A stretch of DNA of 64,000 bases from assembly GCF_037392515.1 (NCBI RefSeq), contig NC_090294.1, forward strand, positions 14,411,038-14,475,037, written 5' to 3'. The first letter of the stretch is position 1. Every line of letters begins with the position of its first letter. A program made the translations under genes and the position numbers. The stretch comes from Haliotis asinina (taxonomy: Eukaryota). Below, piece after piece: positions 640 to 24,756 of this stretch. The notes beneath the pieces are model-generated. The model searched no databases. It saw only the letters and a list, made by a program, of their open reading frames with translations, and had not been told where the DNA came from.

Positions 640-845
640 TGAGTGAGTTTTACGCCACACCCAGCAATATTCCAGCTATATGGCAGCGGTTTAAAATAGT
701 CGAGACTGGACCACACAAACCAGTGATCAAAAGCATGAACATCGATTTACGCCACAGGAATATGATGACATGTCAGCGAGGCTCAGCACAAGATCCCATC
801 GATCGCCTCTTACGGCAAGCATTGGTTACTGAAGATCAATCATAA
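640..845 (-). repeat. SINE-like interspersed repeat (core-sharing subfamily), copy a
   Basis: Matches the 18129-18293, 2530-2745, 5912-6125 and 21185-21322 copies. It has the shared core (gatcactgg...gacatgtcagcgaggctc...) and a tail (gagtgagttttacgcc) at the 640-665 end. Confidence 0.5.
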
Positions 846-4687: not shown

Positions 4688-5645
4688 GCACAACACTAAG
4701 GGAAGAATGCAAAACACTAGAGGACAGTATATAACAGTAGGGGGAAGAATATGTAACAAACAGGTAAGAATACATTACACTAGAGGAAAGTACATAACAG
4801 TCGAGGGGAGAATACATAACGCTAAGAGAAAAAATGCAAAACACTAGAGCAAGTACAAAACAGTAGGGGGATAATGCATAACACTAAGGGAAGAATGCAA
4901 AGCACTACAGGAAAGTACATAACAGTAAGGGGGAGAATACATAACACTAAGGGAAGAATGCAAAAACACCAGAGGAATGTACATAACGGTGAGTAGGGGA
5001 GAATATATAACACTGTGGGAAGAATCCATAACACTAAGGGAAGAATGCAAAACAGTACAGGAAAGTACATAACCGTGAGTAGGGGAGAATACATAACACT
5101 AAATGAAGAATGCAAAACACTAGGGGAAAGGACATAACAGTAGGGGGAGAATACATAACACTAGAGGAAATGTGTATATAAATAACACTAAATAAAGAAT
5201 ACATAACACCAAGGGAGGAATGCATAACAATTTAGGAAAATACATAACACTAGATAACATGAGGGAGAAATACACTCTAAGAAAAAATACATTACACCAG
5301 AGAGAGAATATGCAGAATGCATAACACTAGAGGAATAATGCATAACACAGTGGGGGAAATACATAGAATACATAGCACTCGGGAAAGAATACAAAAGACT
5401 AGGGAAAGAATACAAAACACTCGTGGAAATACATTACACTAGGAGAGGTATAGCACCAAGGTGAGAATACAGTACACTAGGGGAAGAATACATAACATCT
5501 GGAAGAAGAATACTCAGCATTTGAGAAGAAAACATAAAGGTAATGGGAAGCTACAGAACATTTGGAATTTAATACGAAACACTAGGGGGAGGAGAATACA
5601 CAACAATATGGGGGGGGGGGGGGAGCATTCATAACACAGTGATGA
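4688..5645. repeat. Minisatellite, ~21-bp degenerate unit with ~63-bp higher-order period, ending in a poly-G run
   Basis: Reiterated gaagaatgcaaaacactagagga / aagtacataacagtaggggga / gaatacataacactaaggg for about 950 bp. G14 lies at 5611-5624. The many overlapping ORFs on both strands here are repeat translations. Confidence 0.85.
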
Positions 5646-5809: not shown

Positions 5810-6125
5810 AGTTATATCACAACGGTCTGTAAAACCAATTGGGCGTAAGTCAGACAACCCAGTGACTGATATCATGAGCATTGATCGACCTAACTGGAAA
5901 ACGATCACGTGTCCACCAGGTCAGATAGGAAGAAAACCCGATTTCGTTAATCCTTCTTACGACCAACCTATGCTTGTCGCAGGAGATCAACGGGATCTTA
6001 GGGTGAGCCTCGCTGACTTGGTTGACACATGTCATCGTATCCCATTTTGTGCATATGGATACTCATGATGTTGATCACTGGGTTGTCTGATCCAGAGTCG
6101 ATTATGTACAGACTGACACCATATA
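5810..6125. repeat. Head-to-head inverted pair of SINE-like elements (foldback structure)
   Basis: Left arm 5810-5912 is the reverse complement of right arm 6010-6120: cagacaacccagtgactgatatcatgag versus ctcatgatgttgatcactgggttgtctg. The right half (5912-6125) is a full plus-oriented copy, and the left half is a head-truncated minus copy. Confidence 0.6.
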
Positions 6126-6149
6126 GCTAGGGAGCGCTGTCAAACAACA

Positions 6150-6397: not shown

Positions 6398-6586
6398 CTC
6401 TGCTCGGATAATATATACAGCTCCGTAGCTTGTTACTCTTTAAGCTGCATACACAATGATATTAATCGTGGACAATCCCTGTGAAACTGTCCGTAGAAAC
6501 GCACTTCTGGCTTAATCAATCCCGTGATATGTTTTCAATGAAATATATATGTGTTAAAGTGTCATCGGCTACAAAGGTGAAATATA

Positions 6587-8198
6587 CACCTGGAAATTAA
6601 TCAAGCAACACCCCAATTTTTTCTATTGGAGCAACTTTGAAGTGTTCTGACAATCAAAATATGCCGGGTTGATATAGTTTGACACTTTTTTATTCAACAG
6701 ACGATCTCTGACAAACAACTTAAAGGGAAAAAGTATCAAGACTTTGCTTTATTGCAACGAAATCCAAATTCTTAAAACTGTCTTAAATTCATGAAAAAAT
6801 GGACACAATTTACTATTCATCCACAGACGTTGTTGTCAGGTGTATTAACACAAATGTCACATGGAAAGAAAGAACAGTCATCTGAGAGTCTGCACACCGA
6901 CTTTCATCAATATCTAGTGTGTCCTCCCTGCGCACGCACCACCGATTCCAGACGCCTCCTCATTCCTTGGATGAGTCTCCGGATCTGATTCTGGGGGATC
7001 CTGTTCCACTCCTCATGCAGGGCAGCCGTCAATTCGTTGAGATTATGGACTGGTGGGTCTCTCTGCCTCACACGACGGCCAATAAAGTCCCACAAATGTT
7101 CAATGGGGTTGAGGTCAGGGCTCATGGCAGGCCATGGAATTCTGTCAATTGCATTTTGCCGCAAAAAATCATTTACAGCATGCGCCCTGTGAGGTCTAGC
7201 ATTGTCGTCCATAAATATGGGTCTCGTTGCCAGAGGATGGTTCTCAAAATGAGGTACCACAGCCCTGTCAAGAACCTCCTGTTGGTAACGAACACCGTTA
7301 AGGTTGCCACGGATGGTAATGATATCCAACTTGCAGTTCATGGAAATGCACCCCCATACCATAACGGAACCTCCCCCAAAGGCCACAGTCTCCTGGATGT
7401 TCCGTGGAGCCATTGCTGTGTTCCTCTGCCTCCAGACCCGAGTACGACCGTCCACCATGTGCAGCAAGAACCGGCTCTCATCTGAGAAATGGACCTTCCT
7501 CCAAGAGGCAATGTTCCAGTGCAAACGGTCATTACACCAGGCCAGTCGGGCTGCCTTATGGGCTGGAGACAGTCTGGGTCGCTTGATTGGCCTCCTTGCC
7601 CGGTATCCTGCAGCTTTCAGACGATTCCGAACAGTCCTGTTCGAGATGGGTCTCCCTGGAAGCCACTCCTGTCTCAACCGAGAGCTCGAGTCGAAGGACC
7701 TGCGCCGTACAAGTCTCAGTAAAGCTCTGTCCTCCCGGACTGTGGTCTTCCTGGGTCTTCCTGGTCTAGGCAGGTCTTTAACTTCATTAGTGGCCCGGTA
7801 TTTTTTCAAAAGTTTTGAAATTATGGAATGATGTCGTCCGATTTGAGTCCCGATTTGTCTTAGAGACATACCAGCATTCCTCATGCCGATTATTTGCCAA
7901 CGAGTGGCCTCTGATAATTTCCTACGTGCCATGACATTGAAATGAATGAAAAACCGAATGCAATCGACAACCTGCGCTTGTAAACACCCCAGGGAAAAAG
8001 TGCATTTTTCGAAAGTTGAGGTTAAAGCAATGCACGTGCGCTGTGCAAGCTTCACGCGCGTCATATCAACCCATGAAAAGCTCATGCTGTATGTCAATAC
8101 ATCAAAATTGAATAATCAATCATCAAAATTACTTCGTTAAACTTTGTTAAGTTTTTATGTGTCTTTGAATTTGGTGTTGCTTAATTAATTTCCATATG
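6587..8198 (-). mobile_element. Tc1/mariner-superfamily (Tc1-like, DD34E) DNA transposon, apparently full length (~1.6 kb), flanked by TA target-site duplications
   Basis: 26-bp terminal inverted repeats: cacctggaaattaatcaagcaacacc at 6587-6612 versus the reverse complement of 8173-8198, catatggaaattaattaagcaacacc (24/26 match). TA lies at 6585-6586 and 8199-8200. The element contains an intact transposase ORF. Confidence 0.85.
6907..7932 (-). CDS. Tc1-like transposase, 341 aa, uninterrupted
   Basis: ORF with start MARRKLSEATRWQIIGMRNAGMSLRQIG (paired-like HTH) and a GRPRK AT-hook. The catalytic triad is D in HFSDESRF, D in MDDNARPH and E in NPIEHLW, with 34 residues between the last D and E, which gives DD34E. 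The ORF track extends the frame upstream to 8097, but the first Met matching Tc1 N-termini is at 7932-7930. Confidence 0.85.
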   Translation of the reverse strand: MARRKLSEATRWQIIGMRNAGMSLRQIGTQIGRHHSIISKLLKKYRATNEVKDLPRPGRPRKTTVREDRALLRLVRRRSFDSSSRLRQEWLPGRPISNRTVRNRLKAAGYRARRPIKRPRLSPAHKAARLAWCNDRLHWNIASWRKVHFSDESRFLLHMVDGRTRVWRQRNTAMAPRNIQETVAFGGGSVMVWGCISMNCKLDIITIRGNLNGVRYQQEVLDRAVVPHFENHPLATRPIFMDDNARPHRAHAVNDFLRQNAIDRIPWPAMSPDLNPIEHLWDFIGRRVRQRDPPVHNLNELTAALHEEWNRIPQNQIRRLIQGMRRRLESVVRAQGGHTRY

Positions 8199-11100
8199 TA
8201 TAATTGCAGCAATCGAGGTATCAGTCTTCATAATATTCTTGCTTGAGAGATGTGAGGCGAGGTAAAACGAGATTTTACATGGCGTTCAAGGTAATAAAAA
8301 TAACTAAAACATGCGTGCACAAGTTCTGACAGATGGTATAGTTATTGTTTTGTGTGGTTTCTGCTTTTTATTTTGTTTGTGTTTTGATGTGATGGTGTTG
8401 TAGTGCTAGCCAACCTGTTTCAGACACGACCACTTACGGACCGCCGCCATGTAGAATGAATACTGTTGAGTCTGGTGTAAAACAACAGAGCAACTGTGTT
8501 TTTTCTCATTTGTATGATCAGTGATTAGGGGATAGTTATCATGGGTCACATTTCGTATTATATAACGATATGTTAAATGGGAATAACATTTTAGCGGCAC
8601 GCCTGTTTTGATAGCGCCCCAGAGTTGCCTACCTTGACTGGTTGTTTATCTAGTTAACTTTCGAGTATCGAGAAAGTTTTAAGTGAATGGCGATACAGCC
8701 ACGCTTTGCTCGAATGTTCCCGAGACTGCCAGCATATATGAAAGCTGGTTGTTGTGTTCACGGAATCACACACGGACTTACACTCGGAATTATACTGGAG
8801 TTGTGTGCCCCTGCCTATCATTGCCTGTCCGTCAACATCATCTGACCTGCATTCAAGATTGACACATAACACTTGCATTGTACTAGAAATCTGTATTGTG
8901 ATTCTCCGTAATTTGTTCATTGTTTGCTCATCATATATTATTCAATAGTTTAGACTTGTCTTTGGCATATTTCGCTGGTTCAGTGGGGATTTCTTATACC
9001 TTCTGTCACGGCAATTTATTAACCGTAACAAACAATATCCCTGTCAGGCAGGGTAACAAAAAGTAACATCATTCCACGTCGCGTGATATGACGCTGCCAG
9101 GATCGAACCCCGAGCATCGGTCTGTTGTCCACCATCAAGAGTCGGGGCTTCTTAAAGACACACGTTCACATTTTGACTTCACTAAAATTTGGAACCTGTT
9201 TTCATGCCGAATTGTGCATTTGGAAGATGGGTAACGGGCGTTCCTCCATTTCCATCATATCTGATGTGTTTCTTAGCAACACACTTGATTCGAATTCTTC
9301 GTGTAGGAAGTGAACATCATTCACGTGAGATAGGAATAGATCGGATATATTTTAAACATAAACGCATTTTCAGTACTTCTTGTAAGAGTTCTGCAGCTAA
9401 TCTAACTTCTTCCAACGTGTTAATACAATTATCAGAGATCCTCCCACATTTAGAAGTGTTTATCTTCGCTATCAGATTCGATATCAAAGCTCTGGCAACT
9501 TGTTTTTTTCTCAAGCTATCAGGGAGGCCTAAGAAATTCCAAAAAGCACATGTAAAAGTTGAACATAAAATATGCGTTAATTGTCCAAGCGTTCGACATC
9601 AAATATGAGATTTCATATTCTAACGACCTAGTAAGATTAAAGCATCATCTCTTCCGTCCCGCCAGTTAAAACACTCTCTATAGCTTCGTTTCAAGTCACG
9701 TGATACTTTGTACTTTATGCATCAAATAGCACATCGTAAACTAATGTTGTCAATATGAAAGAGTTCCCGTGGAGCTGAGAGGAGTCTGAAGATGACTTTA
9801 ACATCAGGGCCTAACGCCACATAACACCTTCGCCTTGAGGTACCACCCCCTCCCGCGCTCGGCCGTCGACAATTATTCACAAGGAGCGAAACGGTGAAAA
9901 GAAAATAACGCCATATTACATTGAACACCAACGGGAAACAATGGAGCAAGTAGAGAACGGACCTTCTCACGATTATTACCGGCGATAAAAGCTGAAAAGC
10001 CTCCATCTCAGATTTCCCGTCCTCTCTGCCATTACAATAAAATTATCGATGTTTGGGCTGTCCCCGCCCGGTCGCCCCGTCTGTCCTTCTGCACGTCGCG
10101 TGCCTCTGTCAGCTCGCCCGTCGTAAGTAGGTGGGGCATAGAGTTTTTCGTCCAAAATGGACATAAACGATCAAACGGAGATACGAGATCATGACACAGG
10201 AAGAAGGTTTAGCCCAAATCAACTAAAATGTTTCTTTAATTAGGACTTCAAACGATCAGCTCACGAAATGGTCGAGGACAGATTTAGCCGTGCTGCACGG
10301 GCCTCCCGAAGACAGTTCGTGGACAGATGGCATGTCGTCGCTTGATTTGGCGCACATGTCGCAGAGAGTAACAAAAACACGAACTAGTCCCCACGGTCAT
10401 GCGCACTCATGTGTGCCACATCTTATTGTCTTGCAATTACATTGTCTCTTTCCAGACAGCTTTGGCCGATTTGGGCGCTATTATATTTGTGTACTTAGAA
10501 GGGCATAGGGACATATTTAATTGTGCCGCATGGGGACGGGACATGTTCCAACATGTGTAGATTCCGATCTGACACAACACACACCCACGAAGCTGGCCAT
10601 ACTCCTATGCCGCCGAGACCACGAATATTCAGTTCCAAGAGGAGTCATTGTGGCTGGCGCATTTCAAGGAATATTGTGAGACACTTAAACTTTTGCCTTT
10701 TCGTCAAAATTCAGCACGCGCTTAAGTCAACATTAAAGGAACCGTATTTTCAGTGCAGGAAATATTTGAAAACGTTAAAGAATATTCCCTTTGTCGGAAC
10801 CTTCTAAACTGTATTTAAACCGTTTGGGCACAAACAAACGTTGTTAATAAACCTGGAGACTTTGTCTGTTTTGAAACCATTCCTGAATCCAGTCTCTGAT
10901 GCATAGCACATTCATGATATTAGAACAGTGAAGAATACAGTCTAAATATTTACCTATATGTTTCACCCCGGACCAAATCCTGTTCAAACGTGAGACCATA
11001 ATATCTTCCGACGTAATTCACGTAACACACTTCAAAGAAACAACGGTTCGTCAAAGAACTACCATGGTATTTTCTGCAAACCTCGATGGAATAAGATGCC

Positions 11101-12612: not shown

Positions 12613-12779
12613 GGACGGTGGGGTAGCTTAGTGTTTGAAACGTTCGCTCGTGACGCCGAAGACCCGGGTTCTATTCCTCACATGATGATATCGCGTGAAG
12701 TCCATTTCTGGTGTCCCCCGATGTGATATTGCGGGAATATTGCTAGAAGCGGCAAAAACGTAAACTCACTCTCTCAGTG
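12613..12779 (+). repeat. tRNA-derived SINE, complete copy
   Basis: A-box-like ggggtagcttagtg and B-box gacccgggttctattcc. Then the conserved ccatttctggtgtcccccg...gatattgcggg/aatattgctag block and the tail aaactcactctctcagtg. The ORF at 12421-12726 is translation of this element. Confidence 0.7.
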
Positions 12780-13585
12780 TCAACCACAAGCGTAACTAAC
12801 CCAAACAATTCCAAACAAAACGGTGAAGAATATTCTCTTTTCTGAAGTTTCTAAACTGTATTTTTGCCGTTTAGGGGCATAAAAAAGAGTTTTTATTCAT
12901 GATATTTTCAGAACAATAGAGAACACATTTTATACACTTACATATGTTGGACACCACATGACACCACAATGCTGGCATACATATATGTTAATTGAGTAAA
13001 CTAAATAAAAATACTTATTGTTTTGTCAGCAACCTACCATACTATTTCGTATAAAATATGAACCTTTATCAAATACATACTTTAAATGAATGTGCGAATA
13101 TAAGTTTTGATATTCAAGAAAATAGGTCAACTATGTATAAATGTGTATGATGCAATTGCAAGCAATTGTGTAATAGCACAACAATCACAGACCACGGCGT
13201 AAAATAACATTTTGAAAACTTTCAGACACGCACATATTTTCGTCGAACAATATGGTTCATTACCATTAGTCCAGCTGGTCATGGAATATGGTAGTCTAAA
13301 ATTTATCCCATTTGAACCGTGTCAGAGCCAAGGAAACAGTACGATTAACCCAGAAAGCTGTTGCTTAATGATCATTCGTCGTCCTTGGCTTTTAAGGTCA
13401 GTCACGATATGGCTGCAATACTGCCGATGTGACGTTAAATGTTAACTCACTCACTTTAAAGGTCACGAACAGCCGGCGTGAAACCTACAAAATATTTATT
13501 TGCTTTCTGTTGTTGTTTTTTTTAAACCAGTCACCTCAAACGGGTTTTTTACATACTTAAAATCAACGGAACAAGAACATACCTC

Positions 13586-13964
13586 TCACGTGAACATGCC
13601 CCTCACATGAAGATGCCCCTCACATGAACATGCCCCTCACATGAACATGCTCCTCACATCAACATGGCCCTTACATGAACATGCCCCTCACATGAATATG
13701 CCCCTCACATGAACATGTCCCTCATATGAAAATGCCCCTCACATGAACATGACCCTTACATGAACATGCCCCTCACATGAACATGCTCCTCACATGAACA
13801 TGTCCCTTACAAGAACGTGCCCCTCACATGAACATGCCCCTCACATGAACATGGCCCTCACATGAACGTGCCCCTCACATGAACATGCCCCTCACATGAA
13901 CATGATCCTCACATGAACATGCCCCTCACATGAACATGTCCCTCACATGAACATGTCCCTCACA
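13586..13964. repeat. Tandem repeat, 17-bp unit (ctcacatgaacatgccc) x ~22
   Basis: Regular 17-bp periodicity with point variants. Each unit contains CACATG. Confidence 0.9.
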
Positions 13965-15218
13965 ATCATACGTTTTTCAAACTCCATTTCTTGGTCTCCA
14001 CCAAGCCCTAGATTTGGCGCAGGATTCATGTTATCTACATAAATGGCCCTTATATGGTTGTGCCACTGAATGTACATCCGTTAATGGATACATTTCGACC
14101 TGACACGACGATTCAATGAAACACCATGTAAAATATCAGATTCAGTCTCAGTTCCAATTTCACCAGATACTCATACCATATTGGCTTATGCTGAATCCGT
14201 TCCGAGATCTGGTAATTTGACTGAGAATTTGTACAGCCGCATACCCTACAAGTTGAAAGCCCTAATGAAACAGTATGCACAGGGGCCTTGATGCAAGGCC
14301 TGGCTGAGGCTCGTACATAGCCTGTCACAGCCAACAGAGGGTTCCTCAATGATACATCAATCAAGTAGACAGGTCCGGCCATTTTAATGGTTCTCTGCGA
14401 CTCCAGGAATCAAGTCGCAGTATGGGCCGTCATCGACGGTCTGTCGAGGTAATGCCAGAGCCATTGTTGGCCATGAGAGTTCATTTGCAGTCTATTAAGC
14501 CTTGCCCAGCTCTGCTGTGGACGGTGTGAACTCTGCCCTGATAGCATGACCTCCGCAATTTTCTGGTCGAGCACATTCATCATTTTTTTCAACAACAATG
14601 GAGCCGGAGGGTAGGCCAGGCTTGTCGGGATGCGGGTATTGTTAGGCTAACTGGGTGTCGACAAACACTGGTGTGGTTTCCTGAACACAAACAGTTGGCG
14701 TGTTTACTGTGTAGAACGGAAGCATATCTGACTGGCGTTTTGGTAAATGTGATGAGGGCTGCTGAAAGTAGATTTGTATGAGCAGATTTCAGATCATTTT
14801 GGAGATGAATAAGTAATGGCTTAGACATGTGAGCTTAATATGAAACATGATACATTCATATGAAAAAATAAATGTAGGCTAATGACAAAACAACGGTCCG
14901 TCTTTTGTTCCTCCTTTGTCGAAAGTATTGAATGGGTTACTTAATGATGTTTACGTATCAATAAAGCTTACTTGGGTTGATATCGGCTGATAATATTCTA
15001 ATCGTCGGCAGTGGGTGATAGTAATAGCATCACACTCGATGAATTACCATGGTAACTACCCATTCATCATAAGTGATTAAAACCTACTCCTTTCAGAAAA
15101 TATACTATATGGAACACCCCGAGTGTCAGTGTATATGAAATTACCTGATGCTGTTTTCTGCTCATCAGCTTCCGTGTACATGAGGTGGGAGCATATATCA
15201 GCAACACGTCTAACAGGT

Positions 15219-15535: not shown

Positions 15536-15712
15536 AAGAGTGAGTGAGTAGGTGAGTGAGTTGGGGTTTACGCCGCTTTTAGAAATATACCAGCAATACC
15601 ACAGAAGGGGACACCAGAAATAGGTTCCACACACTGGACCATGGGAGAAATCGAACGCGGGTCTTCGACGAGACGAGCGAACGCATTGGCTGCTAGGCTA
15701 ACCCACCGCCCC
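15536..15712 (-). repeat. tRNA-derived SINE, complete copy
   Basis: The reverse complement gives a head with gcctagcagcc and gacccgcgttcgatttc, the core ctggtgtcccc and gtattgctggtatattt, and the tail gcggcgtaaaccccaactcactcacctactcactca. Confidence 0.7.
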
Positions 15713-16092
15713 CGCATGTTAAAACACTTCATAACTAAAAGAAAGAGCATTTGTGTACGCTGTTGTAATGTGACTATAATATTGGCATAAGGACTTGGTA
15801 GTTGTGTTAGAGAGAAGAGCTTCTGTACACCAATACTACCTTCTTCACATTTTTTTTATTAACGTTATCACCGATGTTTATGCCATGTGATGGCTATTGC
15901 GATGTTTTGCAAATCGAATGACTACTTTTTTGTGTTATTACTTCAAATGAAATTTAACACGGACACCAAGTCAAATTAATCCCCTTCCTGGAGTCGTGTA
16001 GTATTCTTATCAAATATTTAGTAGTATGAAGTATCACTGACGTAACCTGAGATGGAAGTAGTCAGATGTCACTTATAGGCCAATCATAATGA

Positions 16093-16566
16093 CACCAAAA
16101 CCTATGTCATTACAGAAGAAAACCTATGTCAATACAGAAGAAACCTGTGTCAATACAAAAGAAAACCTATGTCAATACAGAGGAAAATAAATGTCATAAG
16201 AGAAAACGTACGCCAATACAGAGGGAAAGCTGTGTTAATATAAAGGAAAACGTATGTCAATATAGAAGGAAATCTGTGTCAGTATAAAGGAAAACGTATG
16301 TCAATACACAAGACACCAATGTCAATACAGTGTAAATCTATTTCATAAGAAAATAAAACGCATGTCAATTCAGGAGAAAACCAATGTCAATGCGGTAGAA
16401 AACGATACGGTGGAAAACCTATGTCATTACAGAAGAAAACCAATGTCGTTAGAAAAGAAAACGTATTCAACACAGAATAAAACCACGTCACTGGAGAAGA
16501 AAACCACGTCACTGGAGAAGAAAACCATGTCACTGCAGAAGAAAACCTATGTCATTACAGAAGAAT
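16093..16566. repeat. Tandem repeat, ~22-bp unit (agaagaaaacctatgtcaatac) x ~21
   Basis: A 22-23-bp period throughout. The ORF at 16362-16664 (KKTTSLEKKTTSLEKK...) is repeat translation. Confidence 0.9.
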
Positions 16567-18128
16567 ATTTACGTGGATCAAAACACTCTTGGGGTGAGAA
16601 AAGGTTGATTGCAAAATTAGGAATTCGCTTCTACAAGACCAAACCTTTGTCTCATATTGCCTAATAAATGATATATTTGAATTCATGCAGAAGTAGGTTT
16701 GCTGATTACACAAAAATAGGGTTTATAGGCCAGTTTCACAACGGAGCTTGAAATAACTCTAATCAAACCTACTGGCGAAGTGACACGCGAAGCTGGTTCT
16801 TTTGTTGCTGCATCAGCAACGGGTCACTGGTTTCCCACCATCTCCTAATACATAACCATGGAGGCTGATCTCGAAGCAGGGTCTCCGCTATATGCTCATG
16901 CATAATAGACGACATTATCTGATGCACGATCTCCGTCAGCCTTGCTTTCAGTGTCTATGTGGCTGTCTAAGTAAGATATATGAGATTGTGACCAGGTAAT
17001 GGCGATATTTCATCGAGGCAAAATGGAAAATAATTCCTTCCTTTGTGTTTTCACCATGTATTATTTAGTGCTGTTTTTTTCGTCGTGGATATTGTAGAGA
17101 CAACTGTGGTGAACATTTGAAATTTGATATTGACGTAATAATGACGTTGATTGTTTATTTGGGAAAGTTTGTTCTTGTCAACATACGTGTTTCTTTTGTT
17201 TGGTTGAACTTTTTCATTTTAAAGCATACTCCGCAATGGGGTATGGGTGATTCTGGGACTGTTATGTTGTTCAGAATCGACATCAGCTGGCACCCCTTGG
17301 CCCCGATACACGCAGCCTTGACAGAGAATAGGACTCCCGATAATGCGCTGTCGGACTAACAAGGTCTTTCTGAACATTGTGAAGACTCCCTGTCAGTGTA
17401 GCCTTCCGTTTTAGCAAGACTGTCTGAAGCGCTGTGTTGCTAGCAGCAAACTCCGGAATTCTCCTTGCAGTACAAAGTCGACTGGACTTGACAGGGAAAT
17501 TCATGACTTCCAGAACGTCATGGAATTCCAAAATATTCAACACGTGACCAAAACAGTATTTCACTCTCGACGCTAAAATGGTACCTGGCCAAACCTAAGC
17601 AATCCCGACATGTGGTTATTCCTGGATTACCAGAAAAATGGGGTTGAAATATACCATCCTACCCAATGTTCAGCTTAGACACACCAGAAGTTCGAATTTC
17701 GACGTAGCCACCAAGTTGCAATGACACAAAAGGGGAAAGCTATTAAGTCAAAACAAAGCATGGTGAAAGTAGGCGATAAAGCTGATAGTGTAATATAGTT
17801 TATGAACAAGAAAGTCCTACTGAACTATGCCGAAGTGGGGCGATATGTGTCGACCGAGAGACTGTGAAGATACAGTGGTTACTGGACAGTGATGACCCTT
17901 GCTGTTCGACATAGGGACATATCCCAATAACAGTCAGAAGATTGTCAGCAGCCAATGACAACAATGAAGACCCGGACAACTTTGCACATGAGATGATAAA
18001 CGTGTGACATTTCGGAAGCAAGGTCCCCATATTTGTCGTGTTGTTTTCTGAATCGTGTCAGTTTTAATTGTTTGTTGGGATTTATCTTTTGTTGTTGTTG
18101 TTTTCGTTTTGCTTAACTTTTAATATTC

Positions 18129-18293
18129 CAGTTATATGGCTGCGGTCTGTAAGTAATCGAATGTGGACCAGACAATCCAGTGATCAACATCACGAGAATC
18201 ACTCTCCGCAAATGGGAGGCGATGACATGCCAGCGATCCTGACCATCCAACCCCGTTAGTCGCCTCATGGGTTCTGAAGATAAATTCTAACCG
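18129..18293 (-). repeat. SINE-like interspersed repeat (core-sharing subfamily), copy e
   Basis: ccagttatatggctgcggtctgtaagtaatcgaatgtggaccagacaatccagtgatcaacatcacgag...gatgacatgccagcgatcctgaccatcc...cgttagtcgcctcatgggttctgaagataaattctaaccgg aligns with 640-845. Confidence 0.6.
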
Positions 18294-20392: not shown

Positions 20393-21184
20393 TCTTAGTT
20401 AAGCTTCCAAGGCGTTTTATGGTAGACATGTGGAGGTAAGTTCCAAATTTGATGCATCAATGAAGAGAATGATGCAAGATGCAATCTCCTGTTTTGACTT
20501 ACAATTTACGTTCCCCATTTGTATCATAAACACTTTGCATGTGTTTATGACAAGTTCCACTGATGTGGCAGGATATGCTCACCTTTTCGCCAGCACCTGG
20601 TATCCTGTAATAACATGCTCAGTCATCATATTGTATAGTAACAATCAGTGGATTGTCAGGTCCTGACTCGAAATGATTACAAAGATCGTACAGATGTCAT
20701 ACAGATGCAAATATGTACTCACTAAAAACATGACATAATCACAATTTTACAATCGACTTTCCTTTTAATATAGATTTCTTAAGAATGCTGAGAGGGTTTT
20801 CTGGCCTTTATGTCATTCCTAGTAAGATAAATCAACACTGCCCAAAGAAATGAATAATCGAGTCTAGAGCAGACAATTCAGTGATCACTATTGAGACCAA
20901 CGATCCACTCCGCCAGGGGATGCGCGGACACGGTGTCAACCAAGTTCTCGAATCTAACCAGCTGATGCGTCTCTTTTCATCGGATGGGGCATTTTCTTAC
21001 ATTAAGGAACCGGTACGGACGTTTTTGTAAGAAATACATATGTATGTACCGTGTGTATATTTTCGTTGATTTTCGCTAATCCATATTTGTTACGGCTCAT
21101 TAAATGTAGCATTACCCTGTAAGGGTGTGTTATATGTAGTGTATTTGGAGATTATGTACGTCCATCAGTATTAAAGCGTGAAGG

Positions 21185-21322
21185 TTTACACATGTCATCG
21201 TATCCACTTGCGCAGATAGATACTCATGCTGTTGGTCACTGGATTATCTGGTCCGGACTCGATTATTTATAGACCCCAATATAGATGGAATAAAAACTAA
21301 CTCACTCACTACAAACATGTGA
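21185..21322 (+). repeat. SINE-like interspersed repeat (core-sharing subfamily), copy f, with (ACTCA) tail
   Basis: Core acatgtcatcgtatcc...gatactcatgctgttggtcactggattatctggtccggactcgattatttatagacc, then tail aataaaaactaactcactcactac. Confidence 0.6.
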
Positions 21323-22639: not shown

Positions 22640-22856
22640 GTTCACCATCCGTACATCCGTACATCCGTAATATATTAGGCTTTTGCAGAGAGTACATGAG
22701 TGTAGTTTTATGCCGTTATAGCAACATACCAGCAATATCACGACGGCCGGGGGACACCAGAACTGATCATCGCACATTGTACCTATGTGGGGAATCGAAC
22801 CCGGGTCATCGTCGTGACGAGCGAGCGCTTTAACCACTAGACTACCACACTATTCC
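22640..22856 (-). repeat. tRNA-derived SINE, complete copy
   Basis: The reverse complement reads ggtagtctagtggttaaagcgctcgctcgtcacgacgatgacccgggttcgattcccc...gttctggtgtcccccggccgtcgtgatattgctggtatgttgc...aaaactacactcatgtactctctg. The ORFs at 22616-22837 are repeat translation. Confidence 0.75.
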
Positions 22857-23835
22857 TTAAGCTGTACATGCACCACTAATTACAGTGTCCTGCTAGTCAC
22901 TGTTTACATCGCTATGACTATAGTAGTATGAATTATAGTAGTGAAAAAGTGATTATGGTGATAGAGGCGTGTGACTGTAGATCCAGAACAATTCACTACG
23001 TAAGTCTAATGCCGATACTCAATTCTACCTATGAACATGCTCTATTCATGTCAGTGCTAATGGCGAATCCACAGATCAAGCATTTGATACATTCTGAGGG
23101 AAAAAGTAAAAGGAGTTCCTATATATTTTCCAAGGTTTCTTCACAGGCTGTGTATCGAATACCTTGTGAAGGAACCTGGAAATAAGTAAGGGAACACTTG
23201 TGCTTCCTTGTGATCCCTTATTTTCCCCTCGGTATACACAGATGTTGTGGAGCTAAGTATTATTATTTCACGTAAGTCTGATTACAGACTGTATGATCAC
23301 AGCATTGTTTCAACGTGATATTCTGTTCAGCTTGTCATGGAGACGAATATTTAGATATTCTGGCTTAATTAAGGCGGATATTCACTACCGTGTTGATGAG
23401 TGATGAACACAAATTAGATGTTCGATTGAAAAATATTTCAGTGTCTAGTGCAGGTGAGAATATGTATATCATAAATAATATTTTTCATTGAATCACACAT
23501 TTCAAACTCAAGGCATGGTGAGGGGTGGTTTTAGATTAGTAAATAGGCTATCACACTGTTCCTCAATGTGCGGAAGGCTGATATTTGACATATGTGTGTC
23601 ATGAAGATTTATCAGTTGCCACTTATAACACCCGGATATACACGGTTAGAATCAATTTTGAAACATTGTTCATTACACGGAGACTATCGTGTCTTTACGG
23701 TCTTCTGGTGGGGTTAGTCGGATGACTAGGTATAGTGTGGTCACAGATTTTGAAAGGTAAAAGAATCGCCTCCCTTTAGGATACATACCACGTTAGAATT
23801 ACCCAGCCTGCGCATGTGTTTATGATGTTTTTAAA

Positions 23836-24260
23836 AGAGGGCCATGCTTGGCGTTGTACTGTCATGTGGGTTGTATATGCACAAGCCGTTACAGAAACAG
23901 ACAGGATTCCATATACTGTACATCCTGTTGTGGTACCACTGTATACATATGGCCATTGAAAACGAGAGTCATGGTTGGCGTTGTACTGTCGAAGTGGTTG
24001 TATGTGCACAAGCCGTTATAGGAATCGACTGAATTCCATATACTGCACAACCGCTAGTGGTATTTGTATGCACAAACCGTTGTAAACGAGGGCCATGGTT
24101 GGCGTTGTATTGTCGTGTGAGTTGTATGTGCACAAGCTGTTATAGGCACAGACACAATTCCATATACTATACAGCCCGGTAGTTGTATTATCGTACACAC
24201 CTGACCGTTGTAAACGTAGGCCATGACTGCAGTTCTAGCTGGTTGTATTCACATCGTGTA
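23836..24260. repeat. Tandem repeat, ~118-bp unit x ~3.5
   Basis: The unit gagggccatggttggcgttgtactgtcgtgtgggttgtatgtgcacaagccgttataggaacagacagaattccatatactgtacaacccg... restarts at about 23836, 23958, 24083 and 24213. Confidence 0.8.
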
Positions 24261-24600: not shown

Positions 24601-24756
24601 TGGATGAGTGCATTACGCTGATTTTAGCGATATTCAAGCAATGGTACAGTGGTAAACACCAGATTTTGACATATTCCACCATGTGGGGACTCGAACCCGG
24701 ATCTTCGGCGTTACGAGCGAACGCTCTTACCACTAGGCTATCCCACAGTCACCCCA
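24601..24756 (-). repeat. tRNA-derived SINE (same subfamily as 15219-15392)
   Basis: The reverse complement reads gggatagcctagtggtaagagcgttcgctcgtaacgccgaagatccgggttcgagtcccc...ctggtgtttaccactgtaccattgcttgaatatcgctaaaatcagcgtaatgcactca. Confidence 0.7.

What the first reader, a model, noticed from the sequence alone, without database searches (positions are those of the whole stretch)
6585..8200. Apparently intact, potentially autonomous Tc1-like (DD34E) transposon
The element has 26-bp terminal inverted repeats (24/26 identical) and TA target-site duplications. Its uninterrupted 341-aa transposase retains the HTH, the GRPRK motif and all three catalytic residues at DD34E spacing. Most genomic Tc1 copies are decayed, so an ORF this clean implies recent activity.
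Basis: seen in the sequence. Interest (0 to 1): 0.55.

Follow-up and report, generated by a model that had tools for sequence, protein, structure and literature searches.

The report
Intact Tc1-family transposon in a mollusc
This is a complete, young-looking copy of an ordinary Tc1-type "cut-and-paste" jumping gene in what is probably a mollusc genome; it has every part needed to move itself, but it belongs to a very common and well-understood kind.

Summary
Window 6585-8200 contains a 1,612-bp element on the minus strand, flanked by TA on both sides. It has 26-bp terminal inverted repeats, 23/26 identical rather than the 24/26 reported. One uninterrupted 341-aa ORF (7932-6907) carries a bipartite paired-like HTH, a GRPRK linker and the triad D151/D243/E278, which is DD34E spacing.

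Pfam, PDB sequence search and an AlphaFold model all match Tc1-type transposases. The best solved match is the Sleeping Beauty catalytic domain. Identity is about 35% to Tc1, 33% to Sleeping Beauty and 27% to Minos.

Relatives at 52-81% identity share the same TA + CA... TIR + 341-aa layout, including copies in the gastropods Littorina and Batillaria. dN/dS between lineages is about 0.05-0.1.

Two other public read sets hold 99.5-99.7% identical copies. One of those contigs stops 3 nt past the element's TA, which suggests several copies in that sample.

The host carries a COE/EBF gene most similar to mollusc genes. The element lies about 19 kb downstream of it.

Verdict: a new member of a known kind, structurally autonomous and recently mobile. 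Current activity is untested. Low interest.

The parts
6585..6586 (.). TA target-site duplication, at the 3' end of the element in transposase orientation
   Evidence: Read directly. Relatives L002, L004, L005 and L006 also lose homology at a TA.
6587..6612 (-). 3' terminal inverted repeat, 26 bp. On the + strand it reads CACCTGGAAATTAATCAAGCAACACC.
   Evidence: Relative L002, whose coding region is 74% identical in nucleotides, differs at one base: CACCTGGAAATTAATTAAGCAACACC.
6613..6906 (-). 3' untranslated region (35% GC over the 320 nt downstream of the stop codon, 3' TIR included), with two AATAAA polyadenylation-type signals at 6748-6753 and 6689-6694
   Evidence: That the hexamers act as poly(A) signals is inferred.
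6907..7932 (-). Transposase coding sequence: 341 codons plus a TGA stop at 6907-6909, no intron needed, 52% GC
7792..7926 (-). First helix-turn-helix of the paired-like DNA-binding domain (aa 3-47)
   Evidence: Pfam HTH_38 E=1.1e-7, HTH_23, HTH_Tnp_Tc3_1. Model helices at 8-19, 24-31 and 35-48.
7747..7761 (-). GRPRK linker motif (aa 58-62) between the two HTH sub-domains
   Evidence: G58 and P60 are invariant in 46 aligned sequences.
7519..7731 (-). Second helix-turn-helix (aa 68-138). It includes the basic stretch RARRPIKRPRL (aa 111-121), a candidate nuclear localisation signal.
   Evidence: Pfam HTH_Tnp_Tc3_2 E=3.1e-16. The fold matches the Tc3 DNA-binding domain 1u78 and the Pax paired domain. 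The NLS role is inferred.
7060..7494 (-). DDE (RNase H-like) catalytic domain, aa 147-291. Catalytic codons: D151 at 7480-7482, D243 at 7204-7206, E278 at 7099-7101. The Tc1-type glycine-rich strip GGGSVMVWGC is at 7348-7377.
   Evidence: Pfam DDE_3 E=2.8e-13. Alignment to SB100X 5cr4 and Tc1. Foldseek TM 0.82 to 5cr4. Coordinates checked.
7933..8172 (-). 5' untranslated region (36% GC over the 266 nt upstream of the ATG, 5' TIR included), presumed to hold the promoter. In-frame upstream ATGs at 8085 and 8064 would give a 392-aa ORF.
   Evidence: The extension is absent from relatives, which start MARR.... The promoter is inferred.
8173..8198 (-). 5' terminal inverted repeat, 26 bp. In element orientation it reads CATATGGAAATTAATTAAGCAACACC.
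   Evidence: It is identical in the independent copy L006.
8199..8200 (.). TA target-site duplication, at the 5' end of the element. The reconstructed empty site is GGTGAAATA-TA-TAATTGCAGC.

Best explanation
A complete, evolutionarily young copy of a Tc1-family (DD34E) cut-and-paste DNA transposon, inserted at a TA in AT-rich, apparently non-coding DNA of a genome that is probably molluscan.

Mechanism, inferred from the family:
1. The 341-aa transposase is made from the element's own single ORF.
2. Its bipartite paired-like HTH domain binds the roughly 26-bp terminal inverted repeats.
3. Two ends are brought together, and the D151/D243/E278 RNase H-like site cuts both ends.
4. The excised element is joined into a new TA, which is duplicated on repair.

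Shown here: all structural parts are present and undamaged, the family is under purifying selection, and near-identical copies exist in other data sets.

Inferred only: that this copy is still mobile, and where its promoter, poly(A) signal and nuclear localisation signal lie.
For: Anatomy:
- TA | 26-bp TIR | 266-nt 5' UTR | 341-aa ORF | 320-nt 3' UTR with two AATAAA | TIR | TA.

Domains and fold:
- Pfam HTH_38, HTH_Tnp_Tc3_2 and DDE_3.
- SB100X catalytic domain E=1.4e-36, with the D/D/E columns aligned.
- Tc1 35% identity (155 bits), Minos 27%, Impala 29% over a partial copy.
- AlphaFold pLDDT 84.8. Top folds are SB, Mos1, Metnase, and Tc3/Pax for the N-terminus.

Integrity:
- 130/139 conserved columns are kept and all 29 invariant ones.

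Family:
- Relatives L002, L004 and L005 (Littorina saxatilis) share the layout TA + TIR starting with CA + 341-aa ORF.
- The TIR stays conserved where the UTRs have diverged.
- dN/dS is 0.046 against L002 and 0.11 against L004.

Youth and copy number:
- Logan contigs from ERR11733599 (4 differences in 1,489 nt) and ERR4013314 (7 in 1,441) are distinct near-identical copies.
- The ERR4013314 contig ends 3 nt beyond the TA, and those 3 nt differ from the window's flank at one position.
- The L002 contig ends exactly at TIR + TA. This is the pattern expected when an assembly graph branches at the edge of a multi-copy repeat.

Not chance:
- The TIR core is found only at the two ends, with 0 expected.
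Against: - No second copy lies in the 64-kb window. Genomic copy number is unknown.
- The 90% protein cluster holds only two sequences, one per sample. Copy number may therefore be low, and the other 'copies' could in principle be the same locus in other individuals.
- The two TIRs differ at positions 3-4 from the tip (CATATGG against CACCTGG) and at position 16.
- The 5' version is shared with copy L006, so it is not private decay. Whether the asymmetry affects cleavage is unknown.
- The window copy has a private I284, where the two other copies have L. That family column is L in 27 sequences and I in 18, so the change is probably harmless.
- No expression, excision footprint or empty allele could be examined.
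Confidence: 0.85

Rival explanations
1. A structurally intact but no longer mobile copy. The element arrived or last moved recently enough that the ORF has not yet decayed. This copy may be crippled by its TIR differences or a missense change, or the family may be silenced by the host, for example through piRNA.
For: - TIR tips differ at positions 3-4, and position 16 of the 3' TIR differs from both its partner and relative L002.
- Private I284.
- Nine departures from columns conserved at 80% or more.
- No second copy in the window.
- A very small protein cluster.
Against: - TIR positions 3-4 vary among otherwise intact relatives: CAta, CAcc, CAaa, CAca.
- The 5' tip is shared by an independent copy.
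- All nine departures are conservative, and I/L at 284 is polymorphic across the family.
- All invariant residues are retained.
Confidence: 0.3
2. A domesticated, host-co-opted transposase gene rather than a transposon. Some mollusc Tc1-like genes, such as TLEWI, have been proposed as examples.
For: - An intact ORF under purifying selection.
- Possibly low copy number.
- A precedent in bivalves is described in bioRxiv 10.1101/656579.
Against: - Both TIRs and the TA duplications are present. TLEWI lacks TIRs, has introns and is DD36E.
- Relatives sit at unrelated loci with their own TIRs. In Littorina the copy lies inside the span of another gene model.
- Contigs break at element edges.
Confidence: 0.03
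3. A member of the separate DD34E/Gambol group or another IS630-Tc1-mariner lineage that merely shares the DD34E spacing, rather than the Tc1 family proper.
For: - DD34E spacing and TA duplications are also found in Gambol (PMC7386202).
- No Gambol reference sequence could be obtained, so there was no direct comparison.
- The second-D motif, MDDNARPH, looks more mariner-like than the QQDNDPKH of Tc1 and SB.
Against: - Similarity to SB (130 bits) and Tc1 (155 bits, 35% identity) far exceeds that to Mos1 mariner (29 bits).
- Gambol is reported as a clade outside Tc1 + mariner, so a Gambol member should not be this much closer to Tc1/SB than to mariner.
- The Tc1-type GGGSVMVWGC strip and HTH_Tnp_Tc3_2 domain are present.
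Confidence: 0.04

Closest known systems
Tc1 of Caenorhabditis elegans (founding DD34E element)
   Same: - Size about 1.6 kb (1,612 bp here).
- TA duplication.
- Short simple TIRs beginning with CA.
- A single transposase of about 341-343 aa with a paired-like HTH, a GRPR-type linker and a DD34E triad.
- 35% identity over aa 57-341.
   Different: - The TIR sequence is unrelated: CAYMTGGAAATTAAT... against CAGTGCTGGCCAAAAAG... in the Tc1 sequence of PMC7325037 suppl. 5.
- No intron is needed here. The Tc1 reference DNA shows a short intron-like interruption (that Tc1 has an intron is also from my own knowledge).
- The second-D motif is MDDNARPH against QQDNDPKH.
Sleeping Beauty / salmonid-type Tc1-like elements (PDB 5cr4)
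   Same: - Best solved-structure match: E=1.4e-36, about 33% identity, TM 0.82.
- D/D/E columns and the GGGS-MxWGC strip align.
- An AT-rich palindrome-like TA target: ATA-TA-TAA here. The SB preference for this kind of target is from my own knowledge.
   Different: SB has long (about 230 bp) IR/DR ends with two transposase-binding sites per end (from my own knowledge). Here the TIR core occurs once per end and there are no internal direct repeats.
Minos (Drosophila hydei) and Impala (Fusarium)
   Same: Same superfamily and domain order. 27% identity to Minos over the full length and 29% to Impala over the part present in the reference copy.
   Different: Both are more distant than Tc1 or SB. 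The Minos reference DNA carries a far longer terminal inverted repeat than the 26 bp found here and needs an intron.
Unnamed 341-aa Tc1-like transposases of gastropods (Littorina saxatilis V1264_002693, Batillaria attramentaria BaRGS_00031779) and of many Logan/ENA/JGI contigs
   Same: - 52-81% identity with the same 341-aa length.
- The same TA + 26-28-bp TIR layout, with TIRs starting with CA.
- This is the clade the element belongs to.
   Different: - The closest sequence outside its own roughly 99% group is only 81% identical in protein and 74% in DNA.
- It is therefore a distinct sub-family.
- The public records give it only generic labels ('hypothetical protein', 'transposase').
Mos1 / mariner (DD34D)
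   Same: Same fold and TA target. Full-length fold matches to Mos1 transpososome structures.
   Different: - Only 29 bits of sequence similarity.
- The third catalytic residue is E, not D.
- The Pfam match is DDE_3 rather than the mariner model.

Membership tests
Tc1/mariner superfamily (IS630-Tc1-mariner) | Insertion at TA with TA target-site duplication | tested here: met
   TA at 6585-6586 and 8199-8200. Homology with four related or near-identical copies stops at a TA.
Tc1/mariner superfamily (IS630-Tc1-mariner) | Terminal inverted repeats bounding a single transposase gene | tested here: met
   26-bp TIRs, 23/26 identical. The core motif occurs only at the two ends, with 0 expected by chance.
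Tc1/mariner superfamily (IS630-Tc1-mariner) | Transposase with an N-terminal bipartite paired-like HTH and a C-terminal RNase H-like DDE/D domain | tested here: met
   Pfam HTH_38, HTH_Tnp_Tc3_2 and DDE_3 above their cut-offs. The AlphaFold model matches SB, Mos1 and Metnase catalytic domains and the Tc3/Pax DNA-binding domains.
DD34E/Tc1 family | Catalytic triad D, D, E with 34 residues between the second D and E | tested here: met
   D151, D243 and E278 with spacing 91 and 34. They align to the catalytic columns of SB100X and Tc1. The identity of SB's D153/D244/E279 is from established knowledge.
DD34E/Tc1 family | Groups with Tc1/SB-type transposases rather than mariner, Gambol or other families in a phylogeny | tested here: inconclusive
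   Pairwise scores strongly favour Tc1 (155 bits) and SB (130 bits) over Mos1 (29 bits). No formal tree was built, and no Gambol, TR, IC or IT reference sequences could be retrieved.
DD34E/Tc1 family | Tc1-type glycine-rich strip (GGGS-M-WG) between the first and second D | tested here: met
   GGGSVMVWGC at aa 186-195. G186 and G188 are invariant in the family alignment, and the strip aligns to HGGGSIMLWGC of SB and HGGGSVMVWGC of Tc1.
Autonomous, currently active transposon | Uninterrupted transposase ORF with conserved residues intact | tested here: met
   341 codons with no stop. 130/139 conserved columns kept, with conservative departures only.
Autonomous, currently active transposon | Several near-identical copies at different sites in the genome | tested here: inconclusive
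   Two 99.5-99.7% identical copies in other read sets, and a contig break 3 nt past the TA whose 3-nt flank differs at one position. There is no copy elsewhere in the window, and the host assembly could not be searched.
Autonomous, currently active transposon | Demonstrated excision or integration, or insertion polymorphism | not testable with these tools
   Needs a transposition assay or population resequencing. The searchable collections do not cover the host genome. The TIR scan of metagenome contigs found nothing.
Sleeping Beauty-type IR/DR elements | Long inverted repeats, each with two direct-repeat transposase-binding sites | tested here: not met
   The TIR core occurs once per end. No internal copy was found, allowing 2-4 mismatches.
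TLEWI (domesticated-like mollusc Tc1-like genes) | DD36E, no TIRs, spliceosomal introns | tested here: not met
   Here the element is DD34E, has TIRs and has an intron-free ORF. The TLEWI definition is from bioRxiv 10.1101/656579.

The most novel reading that the evidence does not exclude
This copy, or its near-identical siblings, is a naturally active, low-copy Tc1-family transposon currently spreading in a mollusc. Only a few naturally active animal Tc1-like elements are known, so it would be a candidate native gene-transfer or insertional-mutagenesis vector for molluscs, which lack such tools.
Probability: 0.4. Interest if true: 0.35.

Novelty: new member of a known kind. Interest (0 to 1): 0.2.

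Why it matters
As biology it adds little. Tc1-family elements are among the best-understood eukaryotic transposons. This protein has 43,771 representative relatives at E<=1e-3 and 2,012 at E<=1e-30.

Its practical value is modest but real:
- An undamaged natural Tc1-like element with matching TIRs is a ready-made candidate for a transposition assay.
- If active, it could serve as a transgenesis tool in molluscs.
- It would also be a marker of recent transposon activity, or of horizontal transfer, in its host.

For annotation, the locus should be masked as a DNA transposon. It should not be called as a host gene, nor as the 392-aa ORF that automatic callers produce.

Tried and rejected
- **Other copies or MITE derivatives in the window.** blastn, tblastn and a TIR motif search found only the element itself.
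- **TIR scan of JGI metagenome contigs.** 0 matches.
- **Host identification from run and assembly accessions.** A literature search for ERR4013314, ERR11733599, ERR9287892, ERZ25072293 and ERZ25069866 found no papers.
- **Exact-sequence look-up.** The 341-aa protein is not in the collection.
- **Reference sequences for a full family tree, including Gambol.** The supplements of PMC7731502, PMC7386202 and PMC8533490 gave accession numbers or no usable named sequences. Only Tc1, Minos and a partial Impala were recovered, from PMC7325037 suppl. 5, so no formal phylogeny was made.
- **Antisense ORFs inside the CDS.** The 188-aa and 175-aa ORFs are not conserved in relatives and were rejected as chance.
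- **Domestication.** Rejected because TIRs and TA duplications are present and relatives sit at unrelated loci.
- **SB-type IR/DR ends.** Rejected.
- **Rfam and tRNA scans of the window.** Nothing found.
Full report
**1. What is in the sequence**

The region 6585-8200 contains a 1,612-bp element (6587-8198) whose gene lies on the minus strand. It is flanked by TA at 6585-6586 and 8199-8200.

In element orientation the ends are:
- 5' end: CATATGGAAATTAATTAAGCAACACC (window 8198-8173)
- 3' end, read inward from the tip: CACCTGGAAATTAATCAAGCAACACC (6587-6612)

These are 26-bp terminal inverted repeats that match at 23 of 26 positions. With the TA the match is 25/28, and blastn gives 89.3%. The mismatches are at TIR positions 3, 4 and 16.

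The repeat is far beyond chance:
- The 21-nt core occurs only at these two places in 64 kb, with none in 100 shuffles.
- Shuffled UTRs never gave better than 19/28, against the observed 23.
- There is no second, internal copy of the binding-site core. The ends are therefore simple Tc1-type TIRs, not Sleeping Beauty-type IR/DR ends.

**2. The gene**

One ORF runs from ATG 7932 to TGA 6909-6907. It has 341 codons, no interruption and no need for an intron. It is by far the longest ORF in the window; the next independent one is about 150 aa.

Pfam finds the following, all above curated cut-offs:

| Model | Residues | E-value |
|---|---|---|
| HTH_38 | aa 3-44 | 1.1e-7 |
| HTH_Tnp_Tc3_2 | aa 68-138 | 3.1e-16 |
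| DDE_3 | aa 147-291 | 2.8e-13 |

Motifs and catalytic residues:
- GRPRK is at aa 58-62.
- The catalytic residues are D151 (FSDES), D243 (MDDNARPH) and E278 (NPIEHLW). The spacing is 91 and 34 residues, which is DD34E.
- These residues align to the catalytic columns of the Sleeping Beauty catalytic domain (PDB 5cr4, E=1.4e-36) and of Tc1.

An AlphaFold2 model built on 46 aligned sequences has mean pLDDT 84.8. Its best PDB matches are:
- the SB catalytic domain (TM 0.82 normalised on the target)
- the Mos1 transpososome structures and SETMAR/Metnase
- for the N-terminus, the Pax paired domain and the Tc3 bipartite DNA-binding domain

The untranslated regions:
- The 5' UTR is 266 nt and the 3' UTR is 320 nt. 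Both are AT-rich (35-36% GC, against 52% in the CDS).
- The 3' UTR has two AATAAA hexamers, at window 6748-6753 and 6689-6694.
- Promoter and poly(A) function are inferred, not shown.

**3. Is the protein undamaged?**

I aligned the protein with 45 relatives of 47-81% identity.
- It holds the majority residue at 130 of the 139 columns that are at least 80% conserved.
- The nine departures are K/R, S/P, S/T, A/R, F/W, I/L, E/D, H/R and H/Q.
- The 29 invariant columns of the 46-sequence alignment, which includes this protein, are M1, G16, G21, G58, P60, T63, L105, H125, W144, S150, E152, R154, G186, G188, D243, N244, A245, P247, R249, W267, S271, H279, W281, G285, M324, R326, R327, G336 and Y341. 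D151 and E278 are conserved in at least 90% of the sequences.

**4. Relatives and what they show**

A word-indexed search found 5,046 significant relatives among the candidates scored. An exhaustive search of cluster representatives found 43,771 at E<=1e-3 and 2,012 at E<=1e-30. This is a very large, common family.

The nearest named relatives are gastropod proteins: Littorina saxatilis at 62% and Batillaria attramentaria at 61%. Many relatives are exactly 341 aa and sit on contigs of about 1.6 kb.

I fetched five related loci:

| Locus | Source | Relation to the window copy | Ends |
|---|---|---|---|
| L002 | Logan ERR9287892 | 81% protein, 74% DNA | Contig ends exactly at ...GGTGTTGCTTAATTAATTTCCAGGTG-TA; its 3' TIR differs from the window's by one base although the UTRs have diverged |
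| L003 | ENA assembly | 81% protein; decayed relative whose 319-aa ORF is cut short | 5' TIR still recognisable; the far end was not examined |
| L004 | 1.8-Mb ENA contig | Same layout | TIR of about 27 bp (…ATGGAAAAAAGTTAGGGAACACCC) + 341-aa ORF + TIR, with TA next to the CA tip at one end; the terminal bases differ at the other |
| L005 | Littorina chromosome | Same layout | TA + CA... TIR of about 27 bp + 341-aa ORF + TIR + TA |

- TIR positions 3-4 vary among these intact relatives (ta, cc, aa, ca). The asymmetry seen in the window copy is therefore not obviously damaging.
- dN/dS is 0.046 between the window copy and L002, and 0.11 against L004, with dS saturated. The transposase has been under strong purifying selection between lineages, as expected for elements that persist by remaining functional.

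**5. Evidence for youth and more than one copy**

Two Logan contigs from different runs carry nearly the same element.

| Contig | Run | Element positions covered | Differences from the window |
|---|---|---|---|
| L001 | ERR11733599 | 70-1558 | 4 |
| L006 | ERR4013314 | 1-1441 | 7 |

- The two contigs also differ from each other at 7 sites.
- Of the 4 coding differences, 3 are synonymous. One, I284 in the window against L284 in both others, is private to the window copy. That column is L in 27 and I in 18 of the relatives.
- L006 contains the 5' TIR, identical to the window's including CATATGG. It stops 3 nt beyond the TA, and those 3 nt (ATA) differ from the window's (TTA) at one position.
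- A contig that ends within a few bases of a repeat boundary is what a de Bruijn assembly produces when several copies with different flanks exist. A single-copy locus, or a filled/empty polymorphism, would be expected to carry the contig about a k-mer length into the flank. This is an inference about the assembler, not a measurement.
- The 90% protein cluster contains only these two sequences, and no second copy lies in the window. Copy number may be low and remains unknown.

**6. Classification**

I used reference DNA from the supplement of Dupeyron et al. 2020 (PMC7325037, file 5).

| Reference | Result |
|---|---|
| C. elegans Tc1 | 35% identity over aa 57-341, 155 bits |
| Minos | 27% identity over the full length, 134 bits |
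| Impala (truncated copy) | 29% identity |
| SB100X catalytic domain | about 33% identity, 130 bits |
| Mos1 mariner | 29 bits |

The Tc1-type glycine strip GGGSVMVWGC is present. The element is thus a separate lineage inside the Tc1 side of the superfamily, about equally far from Tc1 and SB.

The literature recognises a second DD34E group, Gambol, placed outside Tc1 + mariner (PMC7386202). I could not obtain Gambol sequences, so that membership is excluded only by the argument that the protein is far closer to Tc1/SB than to mariner.

It is not a TLEWI-type domesticated gene, which is DD36E, lacks TIRs and has introns (bioRxiv 10.1101/656579).

**7. Genomic context and host**

The window is AT-rich (about 40% GC), largely non-coding eukaryotic DNA.

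A COE/EBF/collier transcription-factor gene lies on the minus strand.
- Exons match at 49163-49074, 47123-46995, 42215-42063, 36059-35883, about 31309-31220, 30472-30302, 29442-29293 and 27247-27173.
- To locate these exons I used a human EBF1 sequence recalled from memory, only as a probe. The exons themselves are the window's own sequence.
- Pfam confirms the COE1_HLH exon, E=6.7e-19.
- The concatenated exons hit molluscs best: Haliotis cracherodii (88%), Liolophura (78%), Pomacea (79%), Elysia (87%), Candidula (87%), Mercenaria (84%) and Patella (82%). None is near 100%.
- The host is therefore most likely a mollusc whose annotation is not in the collection.

The transposon lies about 19 kb downstream of the last matched COE coding exon, in the same orientation. 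It is not inside any detected repeat or exon. The reconstructed target, GGTGAAATA-TA-TAATTGCAGC, is an AT-rich TA site.

**8. Mechanism and verdict**

The best-supported reading is an ordinary Tc1-family cut-and-paste transposon that is structurally autonomous and evolutionarily very young. The steps are inferred from the family's well-studied chemistry:
1. The transposase binds the TIRs through its paired-like domain.
2. The two ends are brought together.
3. The DDE site cleaves both ends.
4. The element integrates at a TA.

What is shown here is that every required part is present and undamaged. Whether this copy still moves is untested; I put that at roughly 0.4.

It is a new member of a known kind and of low general interest. 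It has modest practical interest as a candidate natural vector for molluscs.

Noticed in passing
window 27173-49163, minus strand: Part of a COE/EBF/collier transcription-factor gene. Eight exons were matched, covering roughly aa 192-566 of the human EBF1 probe, i.e. the C-terminal end of the DNA-binding domain, the IPT/TIG and HLH regions, and the C-terminal [25 protein letters not shown] motif. The HLH exon hits Pfam COE1_HLH at E=6.7e-19. The best protein matches are molluscs (Haliotis cracherodii 88%), which gives the likely host phylum. Exons for the N-terminal DNA-binding domain (aa 1-191) were not found in the window.
   Followed up: partly
window 4692-5492: A degenerate minisatellite with a 21-bp unit (AACACTAAGGGAAGAATACAT; higher-order periods of 63 and 125 bp). 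It is strongly purine-skewed on the + strand and lies about 1.1 kb from the transposon. Other tandem arrays are at 1783-2236, 13571-13965, 16084-16568 and 23829-24225.
   Followed up: no
window 666-827, 2607-2745, 5965-6128, 18122-18266, 21183-21275; and 12613-12771, 15554-15711, 22697-22850, 24622-24750: Two families of short (about 100-160 bp) interspersed repeats at 70-82% identity, in both orientations. They look SINE- or MITE-like, are unrelated to the Tc1-like element and were not classified.
   Followed up: no
window 7933-8097 (minus strand; upstream ATGs at 8085 and 8064): The transposase reading frame stays open upstream of the conserved MARR start. Automatic gene callers therefore report a 392-aa protein (P0001, P0121). 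The 51-aa extension is not shared by relatives and is probably not translated as part of the transposase.
   Followed up: partly
window 6919-7485 (+) and 7304-7831 (+): Antisense ORFs of 188 and 175 aa lie inside the transposase CDS. The corresponding frames in three relatives are broken (longest 53-128 aa), so they are chance ORFs.
   Followed up: yes
L005 (Littorina saxatilis CM074565.1, 12294503-12298528): The Littorina relative sits within the span of a large CEMIP/G8-domain gene model, next to a PIF1-helicase (Helitron-like) ORF. This shows that the family inserts within gene spans.
   Followed up: no
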